In this document: piece after piece, positions 3,245 through 53,010 of the stretch | Position numbering within the stretch: position 1 is the stretch's first letter | Layout of the letters: each line of letters opens with the position of its first letter | Assembly: GCA_964645605.1 (NCBI GenBank) | Contig: CAZYCE010000004.1 | Coordinates: 3,934-67,933, forward strand | Length of the DNA stretch: 64,000 bases | Direction: 5' to 3' | Source: an uncultured Gammaproteobacteria bacterium | Lineage (GTDB): Bacteria > Patescibacteriota > Microgenomatia > UBA8517 | The notes under the pieces: generated by a model | The model's input: only the letters and a program-made list of their open reading frames with translations | Told to the model about the DNA's origin: nothing | Databases searched by the model: none | Made by a program: the position numbers and the translations under genes

Positions 3245-3246
3245 TT

Positions 3247-4339: not shown

Positions 4340-4361
4340 TACTCCGACAAATTTGTAAGTT

Positions 4362-5021: not shown

Positions 5022-5038
5022 ATCTTAATATTATTATC

Positions 5039-5689
5039 TCACAATTGGTCTATGGCCGCCGGCGTAATTTCCGAAAACCCTTCAACCATAAGATCGGCTT
5101 TAGATAAAGAAGCTTTATCTTTTTCGCTTCCAAAAAGCGCAATTACTTTCATTCCTGCACGTTTGGCAGCGATAACTCCCGCAACGGAATCCTCAATTAT
5201 CAAGCATTTATCTCTGTCCACACCCAATTTATCAGCACTCAGCGTAAAAATGTCCGGATCCGGTTTGTTGTAAACAACCTCCTCGCAGGTAGTCACCGCA
5301 TCAAATACGCCCTGTAGATTGGTGGCACTTAAAATCCTATCGGTTTGTTCCCATGTGTTTGATGTCGCCAGTCCGATTTTTATTCCGCTTTTTTTAAGTT
5401 TATCTAAAAATTCATCAAATCCGGGTCTCACATTTACTTCACTTATCAACTTCAAATATTCTTTCTGTGTTTCGTCCGCGAGCATGAATGAATTTTTCTT
5501 CGTATTTATGGAGTATTTTTTGATAAAAATGTCCCAGTTTTCCTTTATACCGATTCCCCTTTCCTGAGGATACTCGGTTCTTGAATTTACCCCAAGGCTT
5601 CTTAAAACTGTATTAAAAGCCTTGCCGTACTCATCTTCGTCTTCCAAAACGGTACCATTTAAATCAAAGATAACGGCAGAGATTCGCAT
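5039..5689 (-). CDS. HAD-superfamily hydrolase (beta-phosphoglucomutase-like subfamily IA)
   Basis: N-terminal DxNGT motif (VIFDLNGTVL); Rossmannoid HAD signatures (GLATSN, KPDPDIF, EDSVAGV). Confidence 0.7.
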   Translation of the reverse strand: MRISAVIFDLNGTVLEDEDEYGKAFNTVLRSLGVNSRTEYPQERGIGIKENWDIFIKKYSINTKKNSFMLADETQKEYLKLISEVNVRPGFDEFLDKLKKSGIKIGLATSNTWEQTDRILSATNLQGVFDAVTTCEEVVYNKPDPDIFTLSADKLGVDRDKCLIIEDSVAGVIAAKRAGMKVIALFGSEKDKASLSKADLMVEGFSEITPAAIDQL

Positions 5690-5692
5690 AGG

Positions 5693-38924: not shown

Positions 38925-39110
38925 ATGAAATCCGTAGTTACTTTCTTTTCAGAAGTAAAAAGCGAACTTTCCAAAGTTACCTGGCCAAAGAAAGACGAAG
39001 CCGTAAGGCTTACGAGCATTGTTATTCTAGTCTCTGTGATAGTCGGATTGTATGTAGGCGGATTTGATTATCTGTTTACAACCCTATTAACAAAATTATT
39101 AACTAAATGA
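38925..39110 (+). CDS. secE: preprotein translocase subunit SecE
   Basis: 61 aa with a single C-terminal TM helix; EVKSELSKVTWP motif; 4-nt overlap with nusG. Confidence 0.8.
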   Translation: MKSVVTFFSEVKSELSKVTWPKKDEAVRLTSIVILVSVIVGLYVGGFDYLFTTLLTKLLTK

Positions 39111-39736
39111 ACGACGACGCAAAACAGCCTGAAAATGTAGCAGGAGTTGCCGAACGCGGCATTGGAGGCAAAAAAATCCAAGGCCACATGGTCATCTCTC
39201 AAACCACCGATCCCAAGGCTAAATGGTATGTGGTTCACACATCTTCAGGGCATGAGGTTCGCGTCATGGATACTCTCAGGCAGAGGGTTGAAACAATGAA
39301 TTTGGAAGGCAGGGTTTTCGAGATGCTTGTGCCAACCCAAGACAGAGTCATCATCAGGAGCGGCAAAAAGGCTACAATCAAAGAGAAAATTTTCCCCGGG
39401 TACCTGCTTGTCAAAATGATATTGGATGACCCGACCTGGCTGGCGGTAAGGACCACGGCCGGAATTACAGGATTCGTCGGAGCAGGAAATAAACCCACAC
39501 CCCTATCTGAAGCGGAAGTTGCCAATATTCAAAAGTTTATAAGCTCCCCGGCCCCGAGATTTAAAACTAAATTCAGTATTGGTGAAGCCGTTAAAATAGT
39601 CGACGGTCCTTTTTCCGATTTTCTTGGAACGATCCATGAAATGGATGAAGAAAAAGGCAAGGTTAAAGTCTTGGTTTCCATTTTCGGGCGAGAAACTCCG
39701 GTAGAGCTGGATTTCTTACAAATACAAAAAGTTTAA
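39107..39736 (+). CDS. nusG: transcription termination/antitermination factor NusG
   Basis: NGN domain (KWYVVHTSSGHE); C-terminal KOW (GEAVKIVDGPFSDFLGTI). Confidence 0.9.
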   Translation: MNDDAKQPENVAGVAERGIGGKKIQGHMVISQTTDPKAKWYVVHTSSGHEVRVMDTLRQRVETMNLEGRVFEMLVPTQDRVIIRSGKKATIKEKIFPGYLLVKMILDDPTWLAVRTTAGITGFVGAGNKPTPLSEAEVANIQKFISSPAPRFKTKFSIGEAVKIVDGPFSDFLGTIHEMDEEKGKVKVLVSIFGRETPVELDFLQIQKV

Positions 39737-39790
39737 TGACTTTTTGACCTTAAAGGGTGATAAAAGGTTTAACAATTTCCATAAATTAAA

Positions 39791-39991
39791 ATGCAAGAAC
39801 GAGATCTAGCAGACAGAAGTATTTTAGAAATTTACTATCAACTTGGAAAAGTCTCCTCCCATAGCGGTATAAAACCTATCGAAGCAATTCAAGAAATAAT
39901 AAAGTCGGATCCGGAAAAACAAGCCGTATTTTTGGAAGGTGCCGCCGAAGGACAAAGGTTAAAAGAGGAAGAGGAATTTCAAGGAAAGTAA
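39791..39991 (+). CDS. hypothetical small protein
   Basis: 66-aa ORF only. Confidence 0.2.
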   Translation: MQERDLADRSILEIYYQLGKVSSHSGIKPIEAIQEIIKSDPEKQAVFLEGAAEGQRLKEEEEFQGK

Positions 39992-40002
39992 CGAAAGAAC
40001 AA

Positions 40003-40659
40003 TCACTTCAAATCAACAGCCCTGCTGTCACAAACGTAGCCCTGTATGTGGAACATATTGTTCTCCAATATACCAACCGCCAATCCTTGCCCAAATTTAG
40101 ACACACTTAGTGAATTATTTTTCGAATAATTTTTATTCTCTTCTAACGGAGGATTATCTATTCCATAATTTTGTGCAGCACGACCGTTTACAATTACTTT
40201 TATGGCGTAAAGCCTATTAGAGGTACCCAGATCTTCTCTCCCGGAATCGTTAATTAGATTTCCGTTTGTTGTTGGGTATACTCCAACTCTAATTTCTTCA
40301 TTTAAGATTTCACTCTTACCCTCAACTTTATAAAGAGTTGGGTCGGTTATTTCCCCCAATATTCTTACAACTTCGGCCCCTTCTTCAAACGGCTTAACAA
40401 CTTGATCCTCACCTCTTTTGCGTATTTGCAATTTGTCCGTAAACTCAGTTGGATAGACAATCACAATTTCTTTTGCCTCTCCGCTAATGTTTAGTGGAAC
40501 CTTATCGTAATTACCAACTTCTTTAAATGATAACTCCGGTTTTTTCGAAGACTCCGGAGCACAGGCCGACAGTGCGGTAGCCGTCGCACCAATGCCTAAA
40601 AGTCTTAAAAACCCCCTTCTGGTCATTTTTGTTGGTTCGTTGTTTACTCCTTCCGACAT
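40003..40659 (-). CDS. Tat-signal lipoprotein of unknown function
   Basis: Twin-arginine motif TRRGFLRLLGIGATATA followed by lipobox LSAC; mature part about 190 aa with no known domain. Confidence 0.55.
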   Translation of the reverse strand: MSEGVNNEPTKMTRRGFLRLLGIGATATALSACAPESSKKPELSFKEVGNYDKVPLNISGEAKEIVIVYPTEFTDKLQIRKRGEDQVVKPFEEGAEVVRILGEITDPTLYKVEGKSEILNEEIRVGVYPTTNGNLINDSGREDLGTSNRLYAIKVIVNGRAAQNYGIDNPPLEENKNYSKNNSLSVSKFGQGLAVGILENNMFHIQGYVCDSRAVDLK

Positions 40660-40660
40660 A

Positions 40661-40879
40661 TTATTTGCTCTTTTCCTGAGGCGCAGGCATACCCGTAACG
40701 ACTACTTTATAGACATCCGCCACTGTTTGGCCTTTCTCATTCTTTCTTAAATTGTCCAGCGAAATACCCTTTTGTTCCGCCGCCTTTATGAGATTTAAGG
40801 TTGGGGTTGCACCTATAACCGCACCTTTTGCCACGGGGAGAACCCAATTGACTTTCTCCGCTTTTCCTTCTTCAGACAT
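40661..40879 (-). CDS. hypothetical small protein, co-oriented with the Tat lipoprotein (2-nt gap)
   Basis: 72-aa ORF; no motif. Confidence 0.3.
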   Translation of the reverse strand: MSEEGKAEKVNWVLPVAKGAVIGATPTLNLIKAAEQKGISLDNLRKNEKGQTVADVYKVVVTGMPAPQEKSK

Positions 40880-41041
40880 GCTTTTATTCTACACACAGTT
40901 CTCACTTTACTCAACTGCGATTCTCTTATATAATACTCATACCTCGGTTAATCTGAGGCAGACTGACCAAGTCGAAAGCTTCGCAACAAGTTACTCTCTT
41001 TCGCTTGGAATTTCTAAATTCTAATTTCTGATAACCAAAGT

Positions 41042-41464
41042 ATGGCAAAAAAAGTTAAAACAGTAGTCAAAATTAATCTTAAGGCAGCCGAGGCTACACC
41101 TGCTCCTCCGGTAGGAACAGCATTGGGACAGCACGGTGTCGCCATCATGGATTTTGTAAAGCAGTATAATGACAAAACTGCCGAAATGAAGGGTCAGATT
41201 GTTCCCGCAGTCATTACCATTTACGAAGACAGAAGCTTTGACTTTATTATTAAAAAAGCTCCCGTATCGGACATGATTAAAAAGACTTTAGGTATAGAAA
41301 AAGGTTCGGGAAAAATGCCCGCAGAAGTCGCCGGAACCCTGACTCGTGACCAGGTTAGAAAAATTGCCGAGGAAAAATTGGTTGATTTAAATACCGCAAA
41401 TGTTGAGGCGGCCATGAAAATTGTTGAAGGTACTGCCAGAAGCATGGGAGTAAAGGTGGAATAA
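41042..41464 (+). CDS. rplK: 50S ribosomal protein L11
   Basis: MAKKV...INLKAAEATPAPPVGTALGQHGV signature. Confidence 0.95.
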   Translation: MAKKVKTVVKINLKAAEATPAPPVGTALGQHGVAIMDFVKQYNDKTAEMKGQIVPAVITIYEDRSFDFIIKKAPVSDMIKKTLGIEKGSGKMPAEVAGTLTRDQVRKIAEEKLVDLNTANVEAAMKIVEGTARSMGVKVE

Positions 41465-41542
41465 AAATCATATAAAATTCTGCAGAAAATGTTAAACGAT
41501 TCGAAGAATCTCTAAGAATGAATTTCATATAACATTAAAAAT

Positions 41543-42340
41543 ATGGGAAAAATGAAAACCGCCATTGTTGGCGAAAGCAAAAACCAAGAAAAACACGACA
41601 AAGCCCACAAAGCCGATGCCGAAAAAGTCCATATAGCAGGACTTAAGGGTGGCGAGCGCGTAAAAATCGTTGAGGCTGCACCTACCGAAGAATCTCCGAT
41701 AGTGGAAGAAGGCGAAATTGGAAAAGTCTCACAAAAAACCAAGAAAATTGAAAGAGTTAGGGGAAAAAAATATGTTGAGGCAAAAAGTAAACTTGACCAC
41801 GAAAAGTTTCACAAAATATCCGAGGCCGTAAAGCTTGTAAAAGAAACCTCATATTCGAAATTTGACGGAACGATGGAGCTTCATATTGTTGTTAAAAAAA
41901 TCGGAACTTCAGTACAGGTCACACTTCCCCATCAAGCCGGAAAATCCAAAAAGGTCGAGGTTGCCAATGACGACACAATCGCAAAACTAAAGACCGGGAA
42001 AATTGATTTTGACATACTGGTTGCAAGCCCCGATATGATGCCCAAACTTGTTCCTTTTGCAAGACTTCTCGGGCCAAAGGGACTTATGCCTAACCCCAAA
42101 AACGGTACTTTGGTAAATGATCCAAAAAAACTTAAATCATTTTCGGCTGCAACGGTTACATTAAAAACGGAAAGAGAAGCCCCTCTTATTCACACGGTTG
42201 TCGGTAAGGTTAGCCAAAAGGACGAAGAAATTATAGAAAATATAGAGTCTATCATTAGGGCTCTTGGCGGAGACAAGGGAATTGTCCGAGCCTTTCTGAA
42301 AGCAACAATGAGTCCAGTAGCAAAAATTAGTCTAAAATAA
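41543..42340 (+). CDS. rplA: 50S ribosomal protein L1 with an about 60-aa Lys/Glu-rich N-terminal extension
   Basis: The L1 core begins around KKYVEAKSKLDHEKF; preceding residues have no counterpart in canonical L1. Confidence 0.85.
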   Translation: MGKMKTAIVGESKNQEKHDKAHKADAEKVHIAGLKGGERVKIVEAAPTEESPIVEEGEIGKVSQKTKKIERVRGKKYVEAKSKLDHEKFHKISEAVKLVKETSYSKFDGTMELHIVVKKIGTSVQVTLPHQAGKSKKVEVANDDTIAKLKTGKIDFDILVASPDMMPKLVPFARLLGPKGLMPNPKNGTLVNDPKKLKSFSAATVTLKTEREAPLIHTVVGKVSQKDEEIIENIESIIRALGGDKGIVRAFLKATMSPVAKISLK

Positions 42341-42344
42341 TAGC

Positions 42345-42605
42345 ATGCCTGAAAATTCGGCAAGTTTACCAAAGCCCCAGTGGATGGATCACGAGAAAGA
42401 AAGGCTTTCTAACCTCGATAATAAAGTTCCCCCCAGGCCTAAGCGCCCCACAACGGAAGAGACGGCTCTAAAACAGTTGAAAAGCTATGTAATAAAAAAC
42501 CATTTGGATAGCGATCCCAAGCTTGTTCCCGATAGTTTTGATGGGCCGGATAAAGTAAATAGAGAAACGATTCATAGGATCATTGAAAAAGTTAATCGAA
42601 TCTGA
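42345..42605 (+). CDS. hypothetical protein inserted between rplA and rplJ
   Basis: 86-aa ORF starting 5 nt after rplA; Pro/charged-rich; no motif. Confidence 0.3.
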   Translation: MPENSASLPKPQWMDHEKERLSNLDNKVPPRPKRPTTEETALKQLKSYVIKNHLDSDPKLVPDSFDGPDKVNRETIHRIIEKVNRI

Positions 42606-42699
42606 TCCTTGATTGAAAGAATGATTGGTTATATAATTGCGCTTACCTAAGAAAGTACGCATACAATTAAGTCGTACCGAGGAATAAACGCTTTGAAAC

Positions 42700-42728
42700 A
42701 AGCGCCCTCGATGGGCGCGTTTTTTTTA
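42700..42728 (+). promoter_or_regulatory. rplJ (L10) leader attenuator/terminator-like hairpin GCGCCC-ucgau-GGGCGC followed by U8
   Basis: Perfect 6-bp GC stem plus T-run, 12 nt before the rplJ start. Confidence 0.5.
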
Positions 42729-42739
42729 GGTAGAAAAAC

Positions 42740-43264
42740 ATGTTGAAAGCAGAAAAAGTATTTTTTGTAGATAACTTAAAGGCAGAATTAAAAGACGCTA
42801 AATCAGTCGTCTTGGTTAACTATGCAGGACTTGCCGTTAAGCCCCAACAGGAACTTAAAAGAAGACTCTCCGAAGTCGGCGGAAAAATGATTGTAGTTAA
42901 AAACACACTTCTCTCACGAGCGGCAGAAACAGCCGGTTTTAATAACAAAGATTTGAAGGAAGGTATTTTGACAGGACAAACTGCCTTAATCATTGCAACT
43001 GACGATCCTATCGCCCCAATCCAAATTCTCGGTAAATTTGCAAAAGAATTTGAAGTACCGAAATTCAAAGTTGGAATGGTTGATGGGTCATTCCAAGATT
43101 CTGCCTCTCTATCTCAAATATCAAATCTCCCCAACCGAGATGCTCTTTTGGGGCAGTTCCTTGGAACTTTGATGGGAGCTCAATATGGACTTGTCGGAAC
43201 ATTGAATGCAAATTTACAAAAATTAGTATATGTCCTTAGCGAGGCAAGCAAGAAAAAACAGTGA
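42740..43264 (+). CDS. rplJ: 50S ribosomal protein L10
   Basis: L10 family similarity (KVFFVDNLKAELKDAKSVVLVNYAGL...). Confidence 0.9.
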   Translation: MLKAEKVFFVDNLKAELKDAKSVVLVNYAGLAVKPQQELKRRLSEVGGKMIVVKNTLLSRAAETAGFNNKDLKEGILTGQTALIIATDDPIAPIQILGKFAKEFEVPKFKVGMVDGSFQDSASLSQISNLPNRDALLGQFLGTLMGAQYGLVGTLNANLQKLVYVLSEASKKKQ

Positions 43265-43345
43265 GGAGGCTTGCCTCTCCGAAGCCCGAATGGATTACCA
43301 TCCTTCGCTAACGGCCTCGGAAAGGCGAAGGGAGGTGAATAAATA

Positions 43346-43753
43346 ATGACGCAAGATTCAAAAAAAGCATCAGAAAAAGTTGAGAAAATAGTTGAGGATG
43401 TATCCAAACTTTCCGTTTTGGAACTTTCTGAACTGGTCGCATCTTTGCAGGACAAACTTGGTGTGACAGCCTCTATGCCGGTTGCAGCAGCAGCTCCGGT
43501 GGCAGCGGCAGGAGAAGCCCCGGCAGAAGACACAGGAAGTGCCAACAAAACAGTTGTCATGATCGATTCCGGTGCAAATAAAATTGCAGTTATTAAGGCT
43601 TTAAGGGAGATTGATCCCAACTTAACCTTGATGGATGCAAAAGGTATGACCGATACGGTACCCGCTGAAGTTTTGAAAGATGCTAAAGCAGAAGATGCTA
43701 AGGCAGCTTCCGATAAACTTGTAGCTGCAGGTGCTAAAGTGGAACTCAAATAA
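43346..43753 (+). CDS. rplL: 50S ribosomal protein L7/L12
   Basis: N-terminal dimerisation helix; Ala/Pro-rich hinge; C-terminal domain KVVEL-like. Confidence 0.9.
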   Translation: MTQDSKKASEKVEKIVEDVSKLSVLELSELVASLQDKLGVTASMPVAAAAPVAAAGEAPAEDTGSANKTVVMIDSGANKIAVIKALREIDPNLTLMDAKGMTDTVPAEVLKDAKAEDAKAASDKLVAAGAKVELK

Positions 43754-43783
43754 AAGTTTAATTTTACTGAGCTCTACAACAGA

Positions 43784-43812
43784 GAATCCCGCTTAAAGAG
43801 CGGGATTTTTTG
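43784..43812 (+). terminator. intrinsic terminator after rplL (AAUCCCGCU-uaaag-AGCGGGAUU + U6)
   Basis: 9-bp perfect stem plus T-run; could also terminate the convergent minus-strand ATP-grasp operon. Confidence 0.7.
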
Positions 43813-43946
43813 TTAGACATTAAGCGACACTTCGTAAAATATTCGGAGTGTGAAAAGTTAGATAATAATCTGACAGCGAGAACATAAAAAAGACTCGAAA
43901 AGTATATTTTATACCGCAAATACGAATCAAAAACTGGTTGTATATT

Positions 43947-44891
43947 TTATTGATTAAGTTTACTTTTAAAACTTTTTATTAGAGCCTGTAAAAAAACATC
44001 CCTATTTTTCATTTCCCATTTTGGAAAACCCATTTGATCATTTATTTCGAATATGCGCGGTTTCCCGGTCTTATCGACTCCAAAATCTAAGCTATAAATC
44101 GGGTTATTAAACCTTTCGGAAAAGACTGACGATACTTCGTTTACAGCCTTTTTGATAGACGTGGGCACCCTTTCATAATCAATTTCAGTAAGACTCCCGC
44201 CCTGCGCAGCATTGGCCAATAAACTACCGGACGCCGGCACTCTCACATGGCACCAGACGGGCTTGCCATTGACTATTACAACGCGTAAATCGTGCGTTCC
44301 AGGAGCAATGCCGGGTATTCCCCCGCTGGTATCAATAAACTCTTGAGCAATGTAGTGTGAATATTTTTCATCAAACTTAAAGCTTAAAGCTTCCTGTTTT
44401 GATCCGATAAAAATACCCAGTCCTTTCAGACCGTTTAAAGGTTTGAGCACTGCGAGATCACTTTTTATTTGTGAAAGGATTTTTGGCAATTCTTTTTTGT
44501 CGTCAATGATAAAAGTTTGAGGTGTGTACTCGCCAATTAGCTTAGATGTTGCCCATTTATCCCAGGCAAGAATTTTAAATTCACGTTCGTTGACAACAAG
44601 GAGGTTGTCATCAGGAATCGGAAAGGAAATGCCGCCGGTTCTGTCATAAACCAGATCCAGTTTGACAGGCTCAAATATTTGAATGTATTCCCTATTTTTA
44701 AAACGCCAGACCCCTTTAAAAATTCCGTTTCCGTTATAGGTTTTTCTGGTTAAAACATATGTTTCCCAACCCTGAGACGCACAAAGTTCCAAGAGCCGTT
44801 CATACACGGGATACTTAGCGCCGATGTGCCCAAGTGGAGTAATCCCCGAGAAATCTCTGGAGAACACTATTCCAACTTTTTTTACCATCAT
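43947..44891 (-). CDS. ATP-grasp superfamily amidoligase (YheC/D- or RimK-related)
   Basis: ATP-grasp core motifs: VLKPLNGLKGLGI (P-loop-like), AQEFID, DLRVVIVNGKPV, FEINDQMGFP; stop/start overlap (ATGA) with the upstream gene. Confidence 0.65.
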   Translation of the reverse strand: MMVKKVGIVFSRDFSGITPLGHIGAKYPVYERLLELCASQGWETYVLTRKTYNGNGIFKGVWRFKNREYIQIFEPVKLDLVYDRTGGISFPIPDDNLLVVNEREFKILAWDKWATSKLIGEYTPQTFIIDDKKELPKILSQIKSDLAVLKPLNGLKGLGIFIGSKQEALSFKFDEKYSHYIAQEFIDTSGGIPGIAPGTHDLRVVIVNGKPVWCHVRVPASGSLLANAAQGGSLTEIDYERVPTSIKKAVNEVSSVFSERFNNPIYSLDFGVDKTGKPRIFEINDQMGFPKWEMKNRDVFLQALIKSFKSKLNQ

Positions 44892-45802
44892 TATTTTTCC
44901 AGTTCCTCCCTAAAATATTTTGCAATCTGATCGGGTTCTGTCGATCCTTCCGCCTCAAAACTAAAACCCGGCCCCCTGTTTACCTCAATCAGATAATACT
45001 TACCGGACTCAAAGTCCCGTGCGATATCAACACCGGCGATTTGAAGATTGAGTTTAACGGCTGCATCAATGGCTATCTTAGCAAGATCGGACGGAATTTT
45101 ATCTAACTCCAGAAATTCCTCTTTTGCTCCCAGAGAGACATTGTGCCTAAACTCTCCTTTAACTGTTAGGATCTTTTTCTCCCAAACTCCAACCTTTTGT
45201 CCCAAAACTAAAACTCTATATTCTTCTCCTAAGTTTTTATATTCCTGAAACAGAAATTGGTTGTCGGAACCGCTGTTACTTTTTGCAGGAAGATCTGCAA
45301 ATCCCTCAACCGAGTTGATTTTATAAACACCTTTTCCTTTTTGCATAGAAAGTTCTTTAGCTATGAGCGGAAAGCCCAGTTCCCTTGCTATTCGTTCTTT
45401 ATACTTATCTATTTGTTTCTGACGAACATAAATACTGTTGATTATTGGAAGTCCTAAGACGCTAAGCTTAACTAAAGATGTAAATTTACTTCCCAAAGGT
45501 CCTATTTCTCCCCAAGAAGTATCAATGAACTTGATCTTTTTGGCTTTTAGACAAATGGCCAGAGTAGCAGCCATAATAGAGAAACCCCCTCCAGCTCGTC
45601 TGAAGTATACCAAATCATAATCCGTAATCGGATTTCCACCTATTTCTACATAAATATCTTTATCGGAAATAGAAAAATATAAATCGGAAAATTCTGCCAA
45701 ATCGACATCAACATTTTTCCCCAACCTCCGGGACATTTCTCTAACAAATATTTCCTTTTTGAGTCCCCTTGTTCCGACAAGAACCAGTATTTTTTTCATC
45801 AT
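44891..45802 (-). CDS. RimK-like ATP-grasp alpha-L-glutamate-ligase family protein
   Basis: LIAKELSMQKGKGV, FLFQEY, YRVLVLG, AGVDI, YLIEVNRGPG: order and spacing as in RimK. Confidence 0.75.
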   Translation of the reverse strand: MMKKILVLVGTRGLKKEIFVREMSRRLGKNVDVDLAEFSDLYFSISDKDIYVEIGGNPITDYDLVYFRRAGGGFSIMAATLAICLKAKKIKFIDTSWGEIGPLGSKFTSLVKLSVLGLPIINSIYVRQKQIDKYKERIARELGFPLIAKELSMQKGKGVYKINSVEGFADLPAKSNSGSDNQFLFQEYKNLGEEYRVLVLGQKVGVWEKKILTVKGEFRHNVSLGAKEEFLELDKIPSDLAKIAIDAAVKLNLQIAGVDIARDFESGKYYLIEVNRGPGFSFEAEGSTEPDQIAKYFREELEK

Positions 45803-45819
45803 TTTTTGTAAACGCCAAC

Positions 45820-47118
45820 CTAAATTTCTCTTGCTCGATCGTCCACCTTAACCAAAAATCCTTGCAAATCTCGTCTTCCAATTATAAATACCTTCTTTAA
45901 TCCTTTACGGTTTGAAACTGAAGCAATCGTATTTATCCTTCTTCCGGCTAGAATGAAGCTAATGTTAATTACGGGTCTTTCTTCAGATCCTAAAGCACTT
46001 TTAAAAACCTTACTCCAAAGTATGTTATTTTTAATCAAAAGCCCGTTATCCTCTGCAAATGTTTTATCTATTGAGCTTCTCCAAGCCCCTGTATCAATTT
46101 TCGCCATAACTTCCACTTTGCGTTTATTGGGAAGAACTATTTTTATCATCTCTTCATTGTTAATGGTTTTTATCCCTGCCTCGATAGCCTTTTTATTCTT
46201 AAATCTGCCTGCAAAAAGGGCCTTTGCGATTCTTATTCCATGTTCCGCATCGGTTACCTCAAGGTCTTCAACTCTTTCAAGCCGTCTTTTTAATCCTTCA
46301 CCGTTAGCAAGTTGTATCTGAAGTCCGGGCTGGGCATTAAGTTCCAACACCATCGGACCCTTTTCCGGATGGACCACTATGTCTACTCCCAAATAACCCA
46401 AATGTGAGGCTTCCTGAGCCTTGACCGCAGTTTCCAAAATCAGATTCCAGTCGGGTATTTTTATCCCTCGTAAGACCCTCTCCGTACCGGGCCTGAACAC
46501 AATTTCCTCCCCATGCCAAATCGCCCTGGTGGTAATCCCCGTTGCAATGTCCACTCCTACCCCAATTGCACCCTGATGCAAATTGGCACGACCCCCCGAC
46601 TCCCGAGTGGGAAGCCTAAGCATAGCCATAATCGGGATTTTATTAAAAACGATTATACGAACATCAGGAGTACCCCGATATGCCCACCTTCGGAAAACTT
46701 CGGCTCTACCCACATACTCCTGAATGAAAGCGACATCCGGAATATTACCCATTGAATATGCACCCTCCAGAATGTCTAGGGTGTGGAGTTTAAGATCGTC
46801 CATCATTATCTTTTCCTTCTGCGTGGTTAACCAGCCACCGTCCTTAAGGCGTCTTTTAACAACAATTATGCCTTCTCCTCCCATTCCGCGGCTGGGTTTT
46901 AAGGCAAATTTCGGAGGAAGACTGTTCCAATCAAATTCAAGAACATCTCTAGGATCTGTAAATTTTTTGTAAATCTTTGGGTGGGCAACCTTAGCTTTTC
47001 TCAAAATTCTAGCTGTCTGGATTTTTGAATCGGCAATGTTTTTGCCGCTTTTGGTATTGTATCTGTAAGCAAATAATTGGCTTCTAGCATTTAGACCAAG
47101 AATAGATGAGGCTTTCAT
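45820..47118 (-). CDS. ATP-grasp ligase fused to a C-terminal retropepsin-like (RimB/PF05618-like) domain
   Basis: N-terminal LKPSRGMGGEGI, IQEYV, GRANLHQGAIG, LGVDIV...LELNAQPG; C-terminal 130 aa with the aspartic-protease-type AKIDTGAWRSS (D-T-G-A) motif. Confidence 0.65.
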   Translation of the reverse strand: MKASSILGLNARSQLFAYRYNTKSGKNIADSKIQTARILRKAKVAHPKIYKKFTDPRDVLEFDWNSLPPKFALKPSRGMGGEGIIVVKRRLKDGGWLTTQKEKIMMDDLKLHTLDILEGAYSMGNIPDVAFIQEYVGRAEVFRRWAYRGTPDVRIIVFNKIPIMAMLRLPTRESGGRANLHQGAIGVGVDIATGITTRAIWHGEEIVFRPGTERVLRGIKIPDWNLILETAVKAQEASHLGYLGVDIVVHPEKGPMVLELNAQPGLQIQLANGEGLKRRLERVEDLEVTDAEHGIRIAKALFAGRFKNKKAIEAGIKTINNEEMIKIVLPNKRKVEVMAKIDTGAWRSSIDKTFAEDNGLLIKNNILWSKVFKSALGSEERPVINISFILAGRRINTIASVSNRKGLKKVFIIGRRDLQGFLVKVDDRAREI

Positions 47119-47130
47119 TTCGAAACAGGC

Positions 47131-48042
47131 CTAAGACCTGATAAGCTTTCTAAAACGATAAAACTCCATTACCCGCAACCCGGTATACTTTCCGAGAATC
47201 AAATCGGCAACCGCAACCAGAATAAGGGATATTTCGGGATTTAAAAGAACATAGGCCCTTAAAGGCTGTAGCGTTAAAAATAGATATGAGATCGCCGAGA
47301 GGATCAATGTCTCAAAAGTCAAGTTGACCGCTGTTTTTGCGCTTTTCCCAAGTTGTACTCGACTAAAGTCCTCCGCCAAAAGAATTAATATTAAAACCGC
47401 GAATATCGAAACGTTCGCGAGTGCGGGAAAATTAAGCAAGGGAGCCATAAAAAGTACTCCCAAAACTCCAAGAACCACCGCCCAAAGAATAAAAGACATT
47501 TTGGGAAGATACTGCAGTTTAAGCTTAAGTTTACGGAGAAGTAAACGGACTGCGGTTGACACGGTAACAATAACCAGGAAAAGTCCGATTCCGACAACGG
47601 GGCCCGTTGCCACAAACACAACGGAAAGAGCCGCCGGCAGGAAAATTCCAAATCCGCGGATTCCAACAACATTCCTGGAAAATGCGATAACGAAGGTTAC
47701 TATTGGTAAAAGTAGAAGAAGAACAATAGTATTTACAGGAACTCCGGAAGCAACCGCTCCCCGGATAGCATACTTAATAGGATTAAACGGCCAAGTGGGA
47801 CCAAGTTTTTGATTTTTTAATATCAGCTCCAACGGACCCAGGGATTCCAGGCTTTTTTGTGTAATATCGATAGGCGCCGCTACCGGAGTTAATGCCGGCG
47901 TTGCCGAAGCTGTAGCCTCAGCTGAGGCTGTGGCAGTAGGTTCAGGAGTAAAAGTTTTGGCCGCGACAGCGACAGGCCTTAAGAGGCTAATTACGGCAAC
48001 CATAACAAGCAATAATGATAGTATTTTTCGCATGGGATCCAA
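47131..48042 (-). CDS. secreted-N-terminus 7TM membrane protein (signal peptide, Ala/Thr/Pro linker, seven TM helices)
   Basis: Signal-like ILSLLLVMVAVISLL...AVAA; linker TFTPEPTATASAEATASATPALTPVAAP; seven hydrophobic 16-22-aa segments; 12-nt gap to the downstream ATP-grasp gene. Confidence 0.6.
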   Translation of the reverse strand: MDPMRKILSLLLVMVAVISLLRPVAVAAKTFTPEPTATASAEATASATPALTPVAAPIDITQKSLESLGPLELILKNQKLGPTWPFNPIKYAIRGAVASGVPVNTIVLLLLLPIVTFVIAFSRNVVGIRGFGIFLPAALSVVFVATGPVVGIGLFLVIVTVSTAVRLLLRKLKLKLQYLPKMSFILWAVVLGVLGVLFMAPLLNFPALANVSIFAVLILILLAEDFSRVQLGKSAKTAVNLTFETLILSAISYLFLTLQPLRAYVLLNPEISLILVAVADLILGKYTGLRVMEFYRFRKLIRS

Positions 48043-48198
48043 TTTTTGGAAAGTGCGTATATTTTACCACAAGGAATGCAAAATTCCGAGTGGCAAGATC
48101 TTTTTGCGAAGCAAAAAGTAGACTTAACACAAATAAGGCCAAAGGTCCCTTAAAAAGTGATTGTGTATTTTTTAAAAAAATCAGCTAGAATTAGGCTT

Positions 48199-48235
48199 CG
48201 CCGCCAAATATTTCCCCCAAGGGGGATTTTCGGCG
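48199..48235 (+). promoter_or_regulatory. palindromic element CGCCG-N10-CCCCCAAGGGGG-N5-CGGCG in the divergent promoter region, 10 nt upstream of the ABC transporter start
   Basis: Perfect 12-nt palindrome nested in a 5-nt outer inverted repeat; operator or 5'-UTR hairpin candidate. Confidence 0.35.
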
Positions 48236-48244
48236 TTCAAAAAT

Positions 48245-49975
48245 ATGTTTAAAACACTGAAGATTTTTTTTAGGTTTATTTTTCGTAAAAAACTGGTTTA
48301 CATACTGGTTATTGCCCTTGTGGTTATAACCTCAATTCTCCAAAGCATTACTCCCTATTTTCTAAAACTCTTTGTAGACACGATACCCGAGCTCAATTAT
48401 CAAAGTTTACTCAATATTCTATTTGTATATATTGCCGTTGTGGCAGGCTCCCTCATCACTGACGTTGCAAGCGGATGGCTGGGAGATGTAGTGCTCCTTG
48501 ACGCGGCAAGGGATGCAAGAACAGAAATTTTTAAACATGTGCAGGATCTGGATTTCGGATTCCACTCGGGAAAATCCACCGGGAGTCTTATTTCCGCCTT
48601 CAAACGCGGAGACGGAGCATTCTTTGACTTATTTCAAACTCTACATTTCAATCTTTTGAGTGTAATCGTAACAACCTGCGTTATGGTCTTTTTCTTTACA
48701 AAAGTAAATCTCTATATTGCGATTTTGATGCTTGGTGCCGTTACTCTAACCGTAATTGCAACCAGATTTTTGATTATGAATAACGTCAGAAGACGGAATG
48801 AGTTTAACAATGTGGAGGATGTCGTTTCCGGAATCATTACCGACAATATGATTAATTACGAGACCGTAAAGCTTTTTGCCAAAGAAAAATGGGAGGTCAC
48901 AAGGTTAAAAGACGCATTTAAAAACTGGACAAAAAAACTTTGGGGTTATGCAAACTCATTCAGATATATCGATATCACACTGGGAATAATCATTAACACA
49001 AGCACATTTTTAGTAATGTTTATAATGCTTTCTCTTACCGCCAAAGGAACTATAAATGTAGGTGATTTTGTATTGATTGTTGGGTTTATCGGGATATTTT
49101 TTCCGAAACTCTGGAATTTGGTCTGGAGCACCAGAAATATCGCCAAAAACTACGCGGACTTGGAAAAATACTTCGGCCTTCTTGATGAAGCTATCGAGGT
49201 CGAAGATCCGAAAAATCCGGTCGTTATCGATCATGTATATGGTGAAATTGCTTTTAAAAATGTCAACTTTGCATACAAAAACAGGTCTAGGAACGCCATT
49301 AACAGACTCACCCTCAAGATTGAACAAGGCCAATCCGTTGCGCTTGTCGGTAGAAGCGGTTCCGGAAAAACCACGCTAGTTAAACTCTTAATGAGATTTT
49401 ATGACGTCACAAGTGGTGAAATCACAATTGATGGAATTAATATTAAAGACTTTACAAAAGATACATTGAGAGGATTTATCGGCATGGTTCCCCAGGAACC
49501 GATCCTTTTTAACAACACGATTGCATACAACATCGGCTATGGAAAAAATCATGCCAAACTAAAGGAGATTCGAGAAGCCGCAAAAATTGCCAATATTGAC
49601 GATTTTATTCAGAGTTTGCCAAAAAAGTACGAAACTGAGGTTGGCGAACGCGGAGTCAAACTTTCCGGGGGCCAAAAACAGCGCCTGGCTATTGCCCGCA
49701 TGATCCTAAGCGATCCCGATATTGTCATTTTTGACGAGGCAACAAGCCAGCTTGACAGTGAATCAGAAAAACTTATACAGGACGCTTTCTGGAAAGCCAG
49801 GGCCGGAAAAACCACTATTATTGTTGCCCACAGGCTTTCGACCATAATGCGCGCCGATAAAATTGTGGTCATGGAAAAAGGCAAAATTAAGGAAATTGGA
49901 ACTCACAAGAGCTTACTCGCCAAAAAGGATTCCCTTTACTCACATTTTTGGAATTTACAAATTAAATTGGACTAG
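48245..49975 (+). CDS. ABC transporter, fused permease/ATPase (MsbA/exporter type)
   Basis: Six-helix N-terminal TMD; NBD with Walker A GRSGSGKTT, signature LSGGQKQRLAIAR, Walker B IVIFDEATS, H-loop. Confidence 0.9.
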   Translation: MFKTLKIFFRFIFRKKLVYILVIALVVITSILQSITPYFLKLFVDTIPELNYQSLLNILFVYIAVVAGSLITDVASGWLGDVVLLDAARDARTEIFKHVQDLDFGFHSGKSTGSLISAFKRGDGAFFDLFQTLHFNLLSVIVTTCVMVFFFTKVNLYIAILMLGAVTLTVIATRFLIMNNVRRRNEFNNVEDVVSGIITDNMINYETVKLFAKEKWEVTRLKDAFKNWTKKLWGYANSFRYIDITLGIIINTSTFLVMFIMLSLTAKGTINVGDFVLIVGFIGIFFPKLWNLVWSTRNIAKNYADLEKYFGLLDEAIEVEDPKNPVVIDHVYGEIAFKNVNFAYKNRSRNAINRLTLKIEQGQSVALVGRSGSGKTTLVKLLMRFYDVTSGEITIDGINIKDFTKDTLRGFIGMVPQEPILFNNTIAYNIGYGKNHAKLKEIREAAKIANIDDFIQSLPKKYETEVGERGVKLSGGQKQRLAIARMILSDPDIVIFDEATSQLDSESEKLIQDAFWKARAGKTTIIVAHRLSTIMRADKIVVMEKGKIKEIGTHKSLLAKKDSLYSHFWNLQIKLD

Positions 49976-51735: not shown

Positions 51736-53010
51736 TTAGGCTACACGTTCTTTTAAAGCTGAGTAATACTTTTGAAGATAATCTTCTGCCCTGTCCCAAT
51801 GTTCCTCCCCCATACCGGCAAGTGCCAGATTCTTTTCCACGCCGGCCAATACTCTCAAACGTGCCGCCTTTGTAGCCTGAAGAAGCGAAATCCTATACAG
51901 TTCCGCCAAATGTTCGCACGCCAATTCTTCGGCATCAGCAGCCGCTTTAAAGGTATCTTTGCCCTTCATCTTTTTGGCAAAATCAACTTCCATTGAAGCG
52001 GCGATCTTGGGTTCAAAAGCAAGCTTTATCTCACCTTTTATAAGTTCGTAAAACTTTTTCATTTTTTCCTTTGCTTTATCCCATTTTTCATCATTTTCTT
52101 CAATTAATGCCTCAACTAAATATTTAACCGCTTCTTTTGCTAATTTCTTCGAAATTCCGTACTGTTCAATTAAATGATCAATTGCATAGTCCCTGAATCT
52201 GACACCTTCAGGAATTTTACTAAGCCTCCACCAGGAAAGCTCAAGTTTAGCGGTTAGTTTGGGGTCAAAAACAAAATGTGTAGCGCTATCATTCCCCCCA
52301 AACCTGCGCCTACGTCTTGAATAATCAAGCACAACATCGGCAAGTTTTCTTGGAGTCATGTCGGGAAGATTGGACTGCTCCCAATAATATTCCGCATAAT
52401 TCAGCTGCCAGGGCATAAAACCGCTGGTTCTTTGTTCTCCTGATGTCCTCAAAAAAAGATCAACGTACGGATAAGGCTGATCCCCTGTATCAAGATAGGA
52501 AGCAAAAAGCTTCTCGTCAATCTTATCCGCAGGTATTTTGTCGGTTGCAATTTTTTTGACGGCCCGGAGAATCTCATCGTGTCCGCCGTAGTCCAAAGCC
52601 ACATTGAAAATGTGGTTTTTGTTGTTCTTAGTTTTTTCTTCAACTTCTCTTATATATTTAACCAAATTTTCCGGTAGCCTATCTTTCCTGCCTAAATGAA
52701 CAAAGCGGACATCGTCGTCTTTGGCCTCATCCTCAACCACTTTAACCATCTTTTTAAAAAGTTTAAAAAGGTAAGATATTTCTTCTTGTGAGCGATCCCA
52801 ATTTTCGGTGGAAAATCCCCAAACCGTGAATGTATGAACCCCCCACTCCCGTGATGCCCTGGCCATTGCCATACCGGCATCAAAACCGGCCTTATGGCCT
52901 GATAAGGTAGGTAGTCCGCGGGCCCTGGCCCAACGCCTATTACCATCCAGAATTATTGCGATGTGGTTCGGAACAATCGTTCCTTTAGGAAGAGTAACTT
53001 TATCCTGCAT
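51736..53010 (-). CDS. uppS: undecaprenyl-diphosphate synthase (cis-prenyltransferase) with an about 170-aa helical C-terminal extension
   Basis: HIAIILDGNRRWA and SGFMPWQ motifs in the first 250 aa; remaining 170 aa is Lys/Glu/Ala-rich with no known domain. Confidence 0.8.
   Translation of the reverse strand: MQDKVTLPKGTIVPNHIAIILDGNRRWARARGLPTLSGHKAGFDAGMAMARASREWGVHTFTVWGFSTENWDRSQEEISYLFKLFKKMVKVVEDEAKDDDVRFVHLGRKDRLPENLVKYIREVEEKTKNNKNHIFNVALDYGGHDEILRAVKKIATDKIPADKIDEKLFASYLDTGDQPYPYVDLFLRTSGEQRTSGFMPWQLNYAEYYWEQSNLPDMTPRKLADVVLDYSRRRRRFGGNDSATHFVFDPKLTAKLELSWWRLSKIPEGVRFRDYAIDHLIEQYGISKKLAKEAVKYLVEALIEENDEKWDKAKEKMKKFYELIKGEIKLAFEPKIAASMEVDFAKKMKGKDTFKAAADAEELACEHLAELYRISLLQATKAARLRVLAGVEKNLALAGMGEEHWDRAEDYLQKYYSALKERVA

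What the first reader, a model, noticed from the sequence alone, without database searches (positions are those of the whole stretch)
43947..48042. Operon of a signal-peptide 7TM membrane protein plus three ATP-grasp amidoligases, one fused to a retropepsin/RimB-like domain
Four co-directional minus-strand genes with 0-18 nt gaps or overlaps: 47131-48042 (cleavable-looking signal peptide, Ala/Thr/Pro linker, seven TM helices); 45820-47118 (ATP-grasp fused to a 130-aa C-terminal domain carrying AKIDTGAWRSS, a D-T-G-A aspartic-protease-type motif); 44891-45802 (RimK-like); 43947-44891 (third ATP-grasp). RimK-family ATP-grasps add amino acids such as poly-alpha-Glu to protein C-termini or build peptide polymers. 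The pairing of a RimK-like ligase with a retropepsin-like protein (RimB-type) and a 7TM module has been noted in comparative genomics as a predicted peptide-tagging or peptide-synthesis system, but three ligases with an in-cis ligase-protease fusion and a 7TM protein lacking a transglutaminase head looks like an unstudied variant. The operon is convergent with rplKAJL and shares its terminator. It is divergent from an ABC exporter and lies about 2.4 kb from an S51 (PepE/cyanophycinase-family) peptidase. Hypothesis: a membrane-associated machine that makes, and perhaps turns over, a poly-amino-acid tail or peptide on or near the 7TM protein.
Basis: partly seen in the sequence, partly recalled or inferred. 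Interest (0 to 1): 0.85.

Follow-up and report, generated by a model that had tools for sequence, protein, structure and literature searches.

The report
Headless Rlo-like peptide ligase operon
This is a four-gene operon from an uncultured Woesebacteria (candidate phyla radiation, CPR) genome: a membrane protein, a peptide ligase fused to a retropepsin-like protease, and two more ligases. It is an unstudied variant of the Rlo/RimK systems of Pseudomonas, which make and trim poly-glutamate.

Summary
Four tightly packed minus-strand genes sit at the stated coordinates:
- a signal-peptide 7TM_transglut protein with no transglutaminase head;
- a RimK-like ligase;
- a glutathione-synthetase-like ligase.

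The closest described system is RloABC of Pseudomonas aeruginosa (2025). It differs in three ways: the 7TM protein is headless, the protease is cytoplasmic and fused to the ligase rather than secreted, and there are extra ligases.

The 7TM + ligase-protease core recurs across CPR lineages (31 of 32 loci). In one Saccharibacteria locus it is a single 689-aa protein. The ligase domain is about as conserved as ribosomal protein L11.

The downstream ligases form a variable island of 0-3 ligases, sometimes with a methyltransferase, or with a MATCAP peptidase nearby. The S51 peptidase is not a conserved neighbour. The ABC exporter is a frequent but not obligate one.

The most likely function is membrane-coupled synthesis, trimming and probably export of an anionic peptide based on poly-alpha-glutamate. 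This is inferred, not shown.

Verdict: a new variant of a known kind, of moderate interest.

The parts
47131..48033 (-). Headless RloB-like 7TM membrane protein (300 aa from the ATG at 48033; the first in-frame start is the TTG at 48042).
   Evidence: PF14402 7TM_transglut, E = 3.9e-27, residues 107-300. It aligns to positions 312-507 of the 508-position NCBIfam RloB model. The top 120 homologs are 267-337 aa and carry PF14402 only.
47962..48033 (-). Predicted cleavable signal peptide (MRK, hydrophobic core, A-V-A).
   Evidence: Hydropathy maximum 3.1 over residues 1-26. The n/h/c pattern with AxA is conserved in 45 homologs. SignalP was not available, so this is a heuristic call.
47737..47868 (-). 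Conserved ~45-aa extracytoplasmic segment (DITQKS.E.LGPLE..L..Q.LG..WPFNP.KYAIRG). It follows a variable Pro/Thr/Ala/Ser linker and sits where RloB carries its transglutaminase head.
   Evidence: Invariant columns in alignment A2. No Pfam match in this stretch.
47194..47736 (-). Seven-helix membrane core.
   Evidence: AF2 helices at 100-123, 128-143, 145-168, 175-200, 205-225, 232-254 and 256-280 (low pLDDT, so only the secondary structure was used). Hydropathy segments agree. K+R count is 16 in the predicted cytoplasmic loops and 1 outside, which gives N-out/C-in.
47134..47193 (-). Conserved basic cytoplasmic tail, GKYTGLRVMEFYRFRKL....
   Evidence: Invariant in A2. In relatives this end is fused directly to the ATP-grasp ligase: P0258, P0256 and the L021 689-aa protein.
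46219..47118 (-). RloC-type (TIGR02291 / ATPgrasp_ST) ATP-grasp amidoligase domain of the fusion protein (residues 1-300).
45838..46170 (-). RimB/RloA-type retropepsin-like aspartic peptidase domain (residues 317-427), joined to the ligase by a disordered linker (305-316).
46084..46095 (-). Catalytic D-T-G-A motif (D342-A345). The second retropepsin motif, IIGRRD, lies at residues 412-417.
   Evidence: DTGA is present in 120/120 close homologs. D38, T39, G40, A41, G110, R111 and D113 are invariant in A1. K340, R381 and R404 align with the poly-Glu-binding residues K46, R114 and R137 of RloA.
44891..45802 (-). Accessory ligase 1: RimK-family ATP-grasp.
   Evidence: PF08443, E = 2.7e-15. TIGR00768, E = 1.2e-19, below its cut-off. 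Best solved relative is Pseudomonas RimK 7qyr, E = 9e-9. The K / D-x-R / N / D / E-x-N motifs are present.
43947..44891 (-). Accessory ligase 2: glutathione-synthetase-like / RimK-related ATP-grasp.
   Evidence: GSH-S_ATP, E = 3e-11, and ATPgrasp_ST, E = 3.1e-11. Best solved relative is E. coli GshB 1gsa, E = 1.6e-6. Catalytic motifs are present.
48034..48244 (.). Divergent intergenic region between the operon and the ABC exporter gene. It presumably holds the promoter; a TGgTAAAAT extended -10-like element lies about 30 nt upstream of the ATG.
   Evidence: Read directly from the sequence. The consensus scan reported no site here. No credible small ORF.
43785..43807 (.). GC-rich hairpin between the convergent rplL and the last ligase gene. 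It is the rplL terminator and may act in both directions.
   Evidence: The T-run is good on the + side only.
48245..49975 (+). MsbA-like ABC exporter. It is a frequent but not obligate divergent neighbour and is not counted as core.
   Evidence: ABC_membrane + ABC_tran. It is found upstream of the cassette in L004, L005, L008, L011, L012, L014, L016 and L017, and is absent in L001, L003, L009, L015 and L029.

Best explanation
The locus is a CPR (Woesebacteria) version of the Rlo system, a membrane-coupled machine that makes a peptide without the ribosome.

Shown:
- The domain identities.
- The conserved linkage of the 7TM protein and the ligase, including fusions of the two in relatives.
- The N-out/C-in topology.
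- Intact catalytic motifs in all four enzymatic domains.

Inferred mechanism:
- The RloC-type ATP-grasp ligase docks on the basic cytoplasmic face of the 7TM protein. It extends a peptide C-terminus one amino acid per ATP, as RimK and LysX do. The product is most likely poly-alpha-L-glutamate or a glutamate-rich anionic chain.
- The retropepsin domain fused to the ligase keeps the three basic residues that bind poly-Glu in RloA. Acting as a homodimer, it would cut the growing chain in the cytoplasm. This would set chain length and create new acceptor ends, as RimB does for RimK.
- The two accessory ligases, which vary in number and type between lineages, would add other residues or branches.
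- The 7TM protein would hand the product to the outer face of the membrane. This last step is inferred from Pseudomonas, where the cognate protease is periplasmic and loss of RloB or RloC suppresses loss of the proteases.
For: Domain assignments:
- Pfam and NCBIfam.
- Profile search against PDB for the C-terminal domain.
- AF2 model of the fusion, pLDDT 87.4.

Active-site conservation:
- DTGA in 120/120 homologs.
- K340, R381 and R404 align with RloA K46, R114 and R137, whose mutation abolishes poly-Glu cleavage.
- K74, D246, E259 and N261 are invariant in the ligase, and all three ligases keep the ATP-grasp motifs.

Physical coupling:
- The 7TM gene lies immediately upstream of the fusion gene in 31/32 loci.
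- Relatives fuse 7TM to the ligase (P0258), transglutaminase + 7TM to the ligase (P0256), and 7TM + ligase + retropepsin in one 689-aa Saccharibacteria protein.
- The two accessory ligases are fused into one 613-aa protein in L003.

Topology: positive-inside count 16 versus 1.

Constraint: the ligase domain is 70-86% identical across Woesebacteria-type loci, tracking L11 (71-84%). The 7TM protein is 63-81% identical, tracking L10 and L7/L12.

Biochemistry and genetics of relatives:
- RimK makes poly-alpha-Glu, and RimB both cleaves it and stimulates synthesis fourfold (PMC11957791).
- RloA cleaves runs of 8 or more Glu.
- Deletion of rloB or rloC suppresses the triple rloA1-3 deletion (PMC12239564).
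Against: - No product, substrate or activity has been measured for any RloC-type ligase, here or in Pseudomonas. The amino-acid specificity of all three ligases is unknown.
- Export by the 7TM protein is purely inferential. Its AF2 model was poor (pLDDT 59.6), so no transporter-like fold could be tested. The conserved intramembrane residues are acidic (E221, E241, E267, D277), which is odd for a polyanion path.
- A ligase and a protease for the same polymer on one polypeptide would form a futile cycle unless regulated.
- In this variant the protease is cytoplasmic, so the Pseudomonas argument for a periplasmic product does not transfer directly.
- The fusion scores below the curated TIGR02291 cut-off (273 versus 314 bits).
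Confidence: 0.45

Rival explanations
1. Sensor-gated cytoplasmic glutamate/poly-glutamate buffer. The 7TM protein is a membrane or osmotic sensor, not an exporter. It switches the attached ligase-protease between polymerising free glutamate (lowering osmolarity) and hydrolysing the polymer (raising it). The product never leaves the cell.
For: - Ligase and protease are on one cytoplasmic polypeptide.
- 7TM modules fused to cytoplasmic output domains are typical of sensors, and such fusions exist here.
- The Pseudomonas Rlo phenotypes are hypo-osmotic.
- Glutamate is a known osmolyte, and Lormand et al. raise glutamate/poly-glutamate homeostasis as a possibility.
- Levybacteria loci carry only the 7TM + fusion pair.
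Against: - The variable tailoring genes (extra ligases, methyltransferase, glycosyltransferase, MATCAP) suit a decorated product better than a simple osmolyte store.
- In Pseudomonas the protease is secreted, which implies an extracytoplasmic substrate.
- No ligand-binding ectodomain is present here, only a 45-aa conserved segment.
Confidence: 0.2
2. Reversible C-terminal tagging of a specific protein (RimK/S6-like or LysX/LysW-like). The ligases would be writers and the retropepsin an eraser. The target could be a ribosomal protein of the adjacent rplKAJL operon or a membrane-associated client held by the 7TM protein.
For: - The closest solved folds (ArgX/LysX, RimK) all act on a protein's C-terminal Glu.
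- Relatives carry MATCAP-type carboxypeptidases, the eraser of tubulin tyrosination.
- Adjacency to rplKAJL holds in two orientations, in Woesebacteria and in a Dojkabacteria locus.
Against: - No small carrier or acid-tailed ORF lies in or beside the operon.
- L7/L12 and L10 end in ...VELK and ...KKKQ, not in Glu.
- The obligate 7TM partner has no role in ribosome modification.
- The 7TM protein's own C-terminus cannot be the acceptor, because it is fused to the ligase in relatives.
- The rpl adjacency is absent in the Levy-, Moranii- and Saccharibacteria loci, so it is probably inherited synteny.
Confidence: 0.15
3. Cell-envelope glycopolymer or peptidoglycan decoration. The ligases would add amino acids to a lipid-linked sugar or muropeptide precursor, with the 7TM protein binding or flipping the lipid carrier.
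For: - Pfam names PF14397 'sugar-transfer associated'.
- Neighbours in relatives include a GT1 glycosyltransferase (L020) and a class A PBP plus a GNAT (L018).
- An undecaprenyl-diphosphate-synthase-like gene lies 2-6 kb upstream in the window and in L001, L005, L012 and L015.
- Pseudomonas rlo mutants have altered cell shape and beta-lactam sensitivity.
Against: - A poly-Glu-type endopeptidase with conserved Glu-binding arginines has no obvious role in single-residue decoration.
- The glycosyltransferase and PBP neighbours are each seen in only one locus.
- The core pair occurs without any sugar-related gene in most loci.
Confidence: 0.12
4. Graspetide or other RiPP maturation, or cyanophycin-like storage polymer synthesis with the nearby S51 peptidase as the degrading enzyme.
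For: - ATP-grasp ligases with weak similarity to cyanophycin synthetase (Foldseek hits to 7wac/7wae).
- An S51 family peptidase lies 2.4 kb away.
Against: - No precursor-peptide ORF is present.
- The S51 gene is absent from all 31 related loci.
- The cyanophycin synthetase models score far below their cut-offs (31 versus 850 bits).
Confidence: 0.03

Closest known systems
RloABC operon of Pseudomonas aeruginosa (Lormand et al., mBio 2025, PMC12239564)
   Same: - Same three protein families in one operon: a PF14402 7TM protein, a TIGR02291/PF14397 ATP-grasp ligase, and a PF05618 retropepsin-like peptidase with DTG.
- The poly-Glu-binding K/R/R residues of RloA are conserved in the fused domain.
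   Different: - The 7TM protein lacks the inactive transglutaminase head.
- The peptidase has no signal peptide. It is fused to the C-terminus of the cytoplasmic ligase instead of being a secreted stand-alone enzyme.
- Two extra ATP-grasp ligases are present.
- The host is a CPR bacterium, whereas the paper reports 96% of RloB sequence hits in Proteobacteria.
- The ligase scores below the curated family cut-off.
RimK/RimB and the RimBK hybrid (Little et al., JBC 2025, PMC11957791)
   Same: - A cytoplasmic ATP-grasp glutamate ligase is paired with, or fused to, a retropepsin-like poly-Glu endopeptidase.
- RimB both trims and stimulates poly-alpha-Glu synthesis, which is the likely logic of the fusion here.
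- The third gene of the operon is RimK-family.
   Different: - RimBK has the protease at the N-terminus of a true RimK. Here it is at the C-terminus of an RloC-clade ligase.
- Rim systems have no membrane partner and target ribosomal protein S6.
LysX/ArgX-LysW amino-group carrier system
   Different: There is no LysW-like carrier gene, no lysine or arginine biosynthesis context, and no membrane or protease partner in LysX systems.
Tubulin TTL/TTLL ligases with MATCAP carboxypeptidase (eukaryotes)
   Same: This is also an ATP-grasp writer paired with a peptidase eraser. Relatives of the fusion carry a MATCAP domain in cis (about 800-aa proteins), or MATCAP is encoded as a separate gene in the same cluster (L020).
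   Different: The window itself has no MATCAP. The resemblance is one of system logic, not orthology.
Poly-gamma-glutamate synthase PgsBCA/CapBCA (own knowledge)
   Same: A membrane-associated complex that makes and exports an anionic poly-glutamate in monoderm bacteria.
   Different: It uses a Mur-ligase-family enzyme (PgsB), not an ATP-grasp, makes gamma linkages, and has unrelated membrane subunits. No homology was detected here.

Membership tests
RloABC system | ATP-grasp ligase of the RloC type (Pfam PF14397; NCBIfam TIGR02291) | tested here: inconclusive
   PF14397 is met: 217 bits against a gathering score of 31.4. TIGR02291 aligns over positions 8-297 of 317 with E = 2.5e-81, but its 273 bits fall below the curated 314 cut-off.
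RloABC system | RloB: 7TM_transglut membrane domain | tested here: met
   PF14402, 95.8 bits against a gathering score of 25. It aligns to RloB model positions 312-507 of 508.
RloABC system | RloB: periplasmic inactive transglutaminase head | tested here: not met
   No Transglut_core hit. Only about 75 residues lie between the signal peptide and TM1. The top 120 homologs also carry PF14402 alone. The Bacteroidales locus L030 and P0256 do carry the head.
RloABC system | RloA: retropepsin fold with catalytic DTG and basic poly-Glu-binding residues | tested here: met
RloABC system | RloA: stand-alone, signal-peptide-bearing, secreted peptidase | tested here: not met
   The domain is the C-terminal part of a 432-aa protein whose N-terminus is an ATP-dependent ligase. 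In L021 it follows 7TM and ligase on one chain, which places it in the cytoplasm.
RloABC system | Genes co-located in one operon | tested here: met
   Gaps of 12 nt, 17 nt and -1 nt. The order is conserved in 31/32 loci.
RloABC system | Role in hypo-osmotic tolerance and envelope integrity; loss of the ligase or 7TM protein suppresses loss of the protease | not testable with these tools
   This needs genetics. CPR bacteria are uncultured, so a heterologous test would be required.
RimK / RimBK | RimK-family alpha-L-glutamate ligase (TIGR00768, cut-off 143 bits) | tested here: not met
   Scores against TIGR00768 are 70.8 bits for the third gene, 54.6 for the fourth and 45 for the fusion, all below the cut-off. 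The Pfam RimK domain is met for the third gene (56.9 versus 21 bits).
RimK / RimBK | Hybrid with RimB N-terminal to RimK | tested here: not met
   The domain order is reversed and the ligase belongs to a different clade.
RimK / RimBK | Poly-alpha-glutamylation of ribosomal protein S6 | not testable with these tools
   rpsF is not in the window, and no activity data exist.
Clan AA retropepsin-like peptidases (PF05618 / DUF785) | hydrophobic-hydrophobic-D-T/S-G-A motif plus a G-R-D/N motif on a ~100-aa beta fold that dimerises | tested here: met
   AKIDTGA and IIGRRD are present and invariant. The fold is confirmed. Dimerisation was not tested.
Cyanophycin synthetase / cyanophycinase | CphA architecture (ATP-grasp + Mur-ligase-like domains) with a linked S51 cyanophycinase | tested here: not met
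   The CphA models score 31 and 15 bits against cut-offs of 850 or more. The S51 gene is not conserved near the cassette.
Graspetide (RiPP) ATP-grasp macrocyclases | Adjacent precursor peptide gene and a MdnB/C-type ligase | tested here: not met
   No small ORF. Structural similarity is weaker than to RimK and LysX.

The most novel reading that the evidence does not exclude
CPR bacteria use this cassette to build and export an anionic heteropeptide that varies between lineages. It would have a glutamate-rich backbone from the core ligase, be cut to length by the fused retropepsin, and be decorated by a swappable set of accessory ligases and methyltransferases. The polymer would act as a peptide counterpart of teichoic acid or capsule on the monoderm CPR envelope, and might matter for osmotic survival or for attachment to hosts. 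That would be a previously unrecognised class of non-ribosomal, non-NRPS envelope polymer. It would also suggest what product RloBC makes in Pseudomonas.
Probability: 0.2. Interest if true: 0.8.

Novelty: new variant of a known kind. Interest (0 to 1): 0.5.

Why it matters
The biochemical job of the Rlo system is still unknown, although it affects antibiotic tolerance, biofilm and cell shape in Pseudomonas. The CPR variant lays out the wiring more plainly.
- Fusions show that the 7TM protein, the ligase and the protease form one physical unit with the catalytic parts in the cytoplasm.
- The core is about as conserved as ribosomal proteins in genomes of only about 1 Mb, which argues for an important envelope or osmotic function in a large uncultured radiation.
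- The compact two-gene core (7TM + fusion), or the single-chain Saccharibacteria version, would be a convenient construct for finding the product by heterologous expression.
- The variable ligase island suggests that the product differs between lineages.

Tried and rejected
- AF2 model of the 7TM protein from 45 homologs gave pLDDT 59.6. That is too poor for a fold search, so only its helix positions were used, and no transporter or sensor fold comparison was attempted.
- Iyer et al. 2009 (PMC3268129), which first described these amidoligase contexts, is not held. The claim that it 'has been noted in comparative genomics' rests on the Pfam/NCBIfam family names and the 2025 papers.
- A PADLOC scan found no defence-system match.
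- Rfam found only tRNAs in the window, with no leader or riboswitch near the operon.
- A search for a small carrier or precursor ORF in both flanking intergenic regions found nothing credible.
- The S51 peptidase as a partner was rejected: no hit in any of 31 related loci.
- The ABC exporter as a core part was rejected: it is present in only about 7-8 of 13 assessable Woesebacteria-type loci and absent in other CPR lineages. Its match to the cyanophycin-associated ABC model is generic (352 versus 880 bits).
- A full-text literature search for PF14402, PF14397 and TIGR02291 found no paper on these families. No paper links CPR with this system.
- The third homolog search, the metagenome scan and the third fold search were not used, because they would not have changed the verdict.

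Full report
**1. Observation**

- 47131-48042, 303 aa
- 45820-47118, 432 aa
- 44891-45802, 303 aa
- 43947-44891, 314 aa

The gaps between them are 12 nt, 17 nt and a 1-nt overlap, so an operon is the natural reading. They are convergent with nusG-rplKAJL (39107-43753) and divergent from an ABC exporter gene (48245-49975).

A GC-rich hairpin at 43785-43807 follows rplL. It lies about 140 nt beyond the last ligase's stop codon and has a good T-run on the plus side only. A 'shared terminator' is therefore possible but not shown.

The 7TM gene most likely starts at the ATG at 48033, because homologs align from MRK.

**2. Identity of the parts**

*7TM protein.*
- It matches PF14402 7TM_transglut (E = 3.9e-27) and the C-terminal half (positions 312-507 of 508) of the NCBIfam model for RloB.
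- No transglutaminase core is detected.
- The N-terminus reads as a signal peptide (MRK, a 15-residue hydrophobic core, A-V-A). A variable Pro/Thr/Ala/Ser linker follows, and then an invariant ~45-residue segment (DITQKS.E.LGPLE...WPFNP.KYAIRG).
- Seven hydrophobic helices follow.
- Counting K+R gives 16 in the loops predicted to be cytoplasmic and 1 outside. This implies N-out/C-in.
- Relatives confirm this independently: their 7TM C-terminus is fused directly to the ATP-dependent ligase.

*Fusion protein.*
- Residues 13-284 match PF14397 ATPgrasp_ST (217 bits) and TIGR02291 'alpha-L-glutamate ligase-like' (E = 2.5e-81, though 273 bits is below the curated 314).
- Residues ~317-427 are a RimB/RloA-type retropepsin domain. 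The domain alone passes the PF05618 gathering score, and all 30 aligned homologs match.
- A profile of the domain hits the solved Pseudomonas Rlo-type peptidases 9g59 and 9g58 and Legionella Lpg0085.
- DTGA is present in 120 of 120 close homologs. The second retropepsin motif, IIGRRD, is invariant.
- Through the 9g58 alignment, whose numbering is offset by exactly 20, fusion residues K340, R381 and R404 correspond to RloA K46, R114 and R137. Those residues coordinate poly-glutamate, and their mutation abolishes cleavage and complementation. The fused protease therefore probably also cuts an acidic, Glu-rich chain.

*Accessory ligases.*
- The third gene is RimK-family. Its best solved relative is Pseudomonas RimK 7qyr (E = 9e-9).
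- The fourth is closest to glutathione synthetase (1gsa, E = 1.6e-6).
- The three ATP-grasp domains are only distantly related to one another (pairwise BLASTP E about 1e-3). All keep the Lys, Asp and Glu-x-Asn catalytic and Mg-binding motifs.

**3. Organism and conservation**

The nearest relatives are Woesebacteria and other Microgenomates (Patescibacteria/CPR). The window's own proteins are in NCBI without names. Homologs are annotated only generically, as 'alpha-L-glutamate ligase-like protein', '7TM domain-containing protein' or 'hypothetical'.

The fusion family is large. More than 5,400 sequences have E <= 1e-5, and 408 clusters at 50% identity have E < 1e-30.

I mapped 32 loci by tblastn. 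The 7TM gene lies immediately upstream of the ligase gene in 31 of them, and the retropepsin domain is fused in about 27. These loci span Woesebacteria, Levybacteria, Moraniibacteria, Saccharibacteria, Dojkabacteria and Paceibacterota.

Across nine Woesebacteria-type loci the percent identities to the window are:

| Component | Identity | Ribosomal comparator | Identity |
|---|---|---|---|
| Ligase domain | 70-86% | L11 | 71-84% |
| 7TM protein | 63-81% | L10 | 51-87% |
| | | L7/L12 | 55-75% |
| Retropepsin domain | 48-81% | | |
| Accessory ligases | 24-67% | | |

**4. Modularity**

The core is the 7TM protein plus the ligase-protease fusion.
- Levybacteria loci have only this pair.
- A Saccharibacteria locus encodes 7TM + ligase + retropepsin as one 689-aa protein, followed by a 613-aa ATP-grasp protein.

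The stretch between the fusion gene and rplL in Woesebacteria is a variable island. It holds:
- one to three RimK-type ligases;
- a tandem-ATP-grasp 613-aa protein in L003;
- a class I methyltransferase in L008 and L012;
- an IS200 transposase in L014.

Elsewhere the following were seen:
- the ligase-protease is followed by a RimK-like ligase, a grasp3-like ligase, a GT1 glycosyltransferase and a MATCAP-like peptidase (L020);
- it is followed by a ligase, a GNAT and a class A PBP (L018);
- it is fused in cis to MATCAP (about 800 aa), to YdjC, or to a second ATP-grasp (926 aa).

A Bacteroidales locus (L030) and P0256 show the classical form, with a transglutaminase-headed 7TM protein and an unfused ligase.

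The S51 peptidase never recurs near the cassette. The ABC exporter recurs in about 7-8 of 13 assessable Woesebacteria-type loci.

**5. What is known**

Lormand et al. (mBio 2025, PMC12239564) named the Pseudomonas operon rloABC.
- RloA is a secreted retropepsin that cleaves runs of 8 or more Glu.
- RloB is an inactive-transglutaminase 7TM protein.
- RloC is a cytoplasmic ATP-grasp protein.
- Deleting rloB or rloC suppresses the hypo-osmotic lethality of the triple protease mutant.
- The product is unknown.
- The paper reports 96% of RloB hits in Proteobacteria and mentions neither fusions nor CPR.

Little et al. (JBC 2025, PMC11957791) studied RimB and RimK.
- RimB cleaves poly-Glu and stimulates RimK's poly-alpha-Glu synthesis fourfold.
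- They characterised a RimBK hybrid with the protease at the N-terminus of RimK.

No paper mentions PF14402, PF14397 or TIGR02291, or links this system to CPR.

**6. Mechanism**

Shown:
- the domain identities;
- intact active sites;
- obligate 7TM-ligase linkage and fusions;
- the N-out/C-in topology;
- the cytoplasmic location of the protease domain.

Inferred:
- The RloC-type ligase, docked on the very basic cytoplasmic face of the 7TM protein, extends a peptide C-terminus with glutamate or similar residues.
- The in-cis retropepsin, as a dimer, cuts the chain. This sets its length and multiplies acceptor ends, following the RimB/RimK precedent.
- The accessory ligases add further residues.
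- The 7TM protein passes the product outward. The Pseudomonas genetics and the periplasmic RloA imply an extracytoplasmic product there.

I put about 0.45 on this full chain. I put about 0.9 on the narrower statement that the locus is an Rlo-related ligase/protease/7TM system.

Rivals:
- a sensor-gated cytoplasmic glutamate/poly-glutamate buffer (0.2);
- reversible protein C-terminal tagging (0.15);
- decoration of a lipid-linked envelope precursor (0.12);
- RiPP or cyanophycin-type chemistry (0.03).

That C-terminus is basic, and in relatives it is covalently continued by the ligase.

**7. Verdict**

The finding is real and correctly read at the domain level. It is not categorically new. The association of these three families is encoded in the curated family names, and the proteobacterial version now has genetics and protease biochemistry.

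It is an undescribed variant in four respects:
- the 7TM protein is headless;
- the protease is cytoplasmic and fused to the C-terminus of an RloC-type ligase, the reverse of RimBK and in a different ligase clade;
- the accessory-ligase island is variable;
- the core is widely conserved across CPR genomes at a level similar to ribosomal proteins.

Interest is moderate (0.5). A specialist would not be very surprised. The variant does offer compact constructs, and a clear topology, for finding out what Rlo systems make.

Noticed in passing
Relatives P0126, P0134, P0151 and other fusion proteins of 700 aa or more (not in the window): When a MATCAP-type metallopeptidase is fused downstream of the ligase-retropepsin unit, the retropepsin DTG motif is usually degenerate (NPNI, NLAH, EPGK, DLKE and others). 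It is kept as DTGA in most 430-480-aa fusions. This suggests that the aspartic protease becomes a scaffold once another peptidase is present.
   Followed up: partly
L027 (Dojkabacteria) 1425-5924; window 39107-48033: The cassette sits next to nusG-rplKAJL in two orientations. It is convergent in all Woesebacteria-type loci, and co-directional and immediately downstream of rplL in a Dojkabacteria locus. This may be inherited synteny or a functional or regulatory link; it is unresolved.
   Followed up: partly
window 42345-42605 (+): An 86-aa ORF lies between rplA and rplJ, where the L10 leader normally sits. Relatives have unrelated ORFs of 105-181 aa with no Pfam hit at the same position (L001 12373-12918, L003 12401-12718). 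The window ORF has no tblastn hit in 32 loci, and no Rfam leader was found.
   Followed up: partly
window 41543-42340 (+): Ribosomal protein L1 is 265 aa and carries an N-terminal Lys/Glu-rich stretch. The long form is also called in relatives (264-280 aa). That bacterial L1 is usually about 230 aa is my own knowledge.
   Followed up: no
window 51736-53010 (-): The undecaprenyl-diphosphate-synthase-like gene is 424 aa. A 408-aa homolog in L001 carries only the Prenyltransf domain. The gene keeps a position 2-6 kb upstream of the cassette in several Woesebacteria loci. That UppS is usually about 250 aa, which would imply a ~170-aa helical C-terminal extension, is my own knowledge.
   Followed up: no
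window 40003-40659 (-): A 218-aa ORF begins with a twin-arginine-like motif followed by a lipobox-like sequence (TRRGFLRLLGIGATATALSAC). It may be a Tat-exported lipoprotein, lying between nusG and rplK.
   Followed up: no
L004, L010, L015, L026, L028 (record titles); L014: Several MAG records are titled 'uncultured Gammaproteobacteria' and one 'Woesearchaeota archaeon'. All but L014 have accessions beginning CAZ, and two of those have isolate names containing 'binchicken'. L004, L010, L014 and L015 carry this cassette with Woesebacteria-like rpl genes at 64-84% identity to the fusion, so those organism names are probably wrong.
   Followed up: no
L008 9173-9784, L012 9092-9715, L014 5478-6158: In some Woesebacteria the accessory-ligase island also carries a class I SAM methyltransferase, and in one case an IS200-type transposase. 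This fits a tailoring region that turns over quickly.
   Followed up: partly
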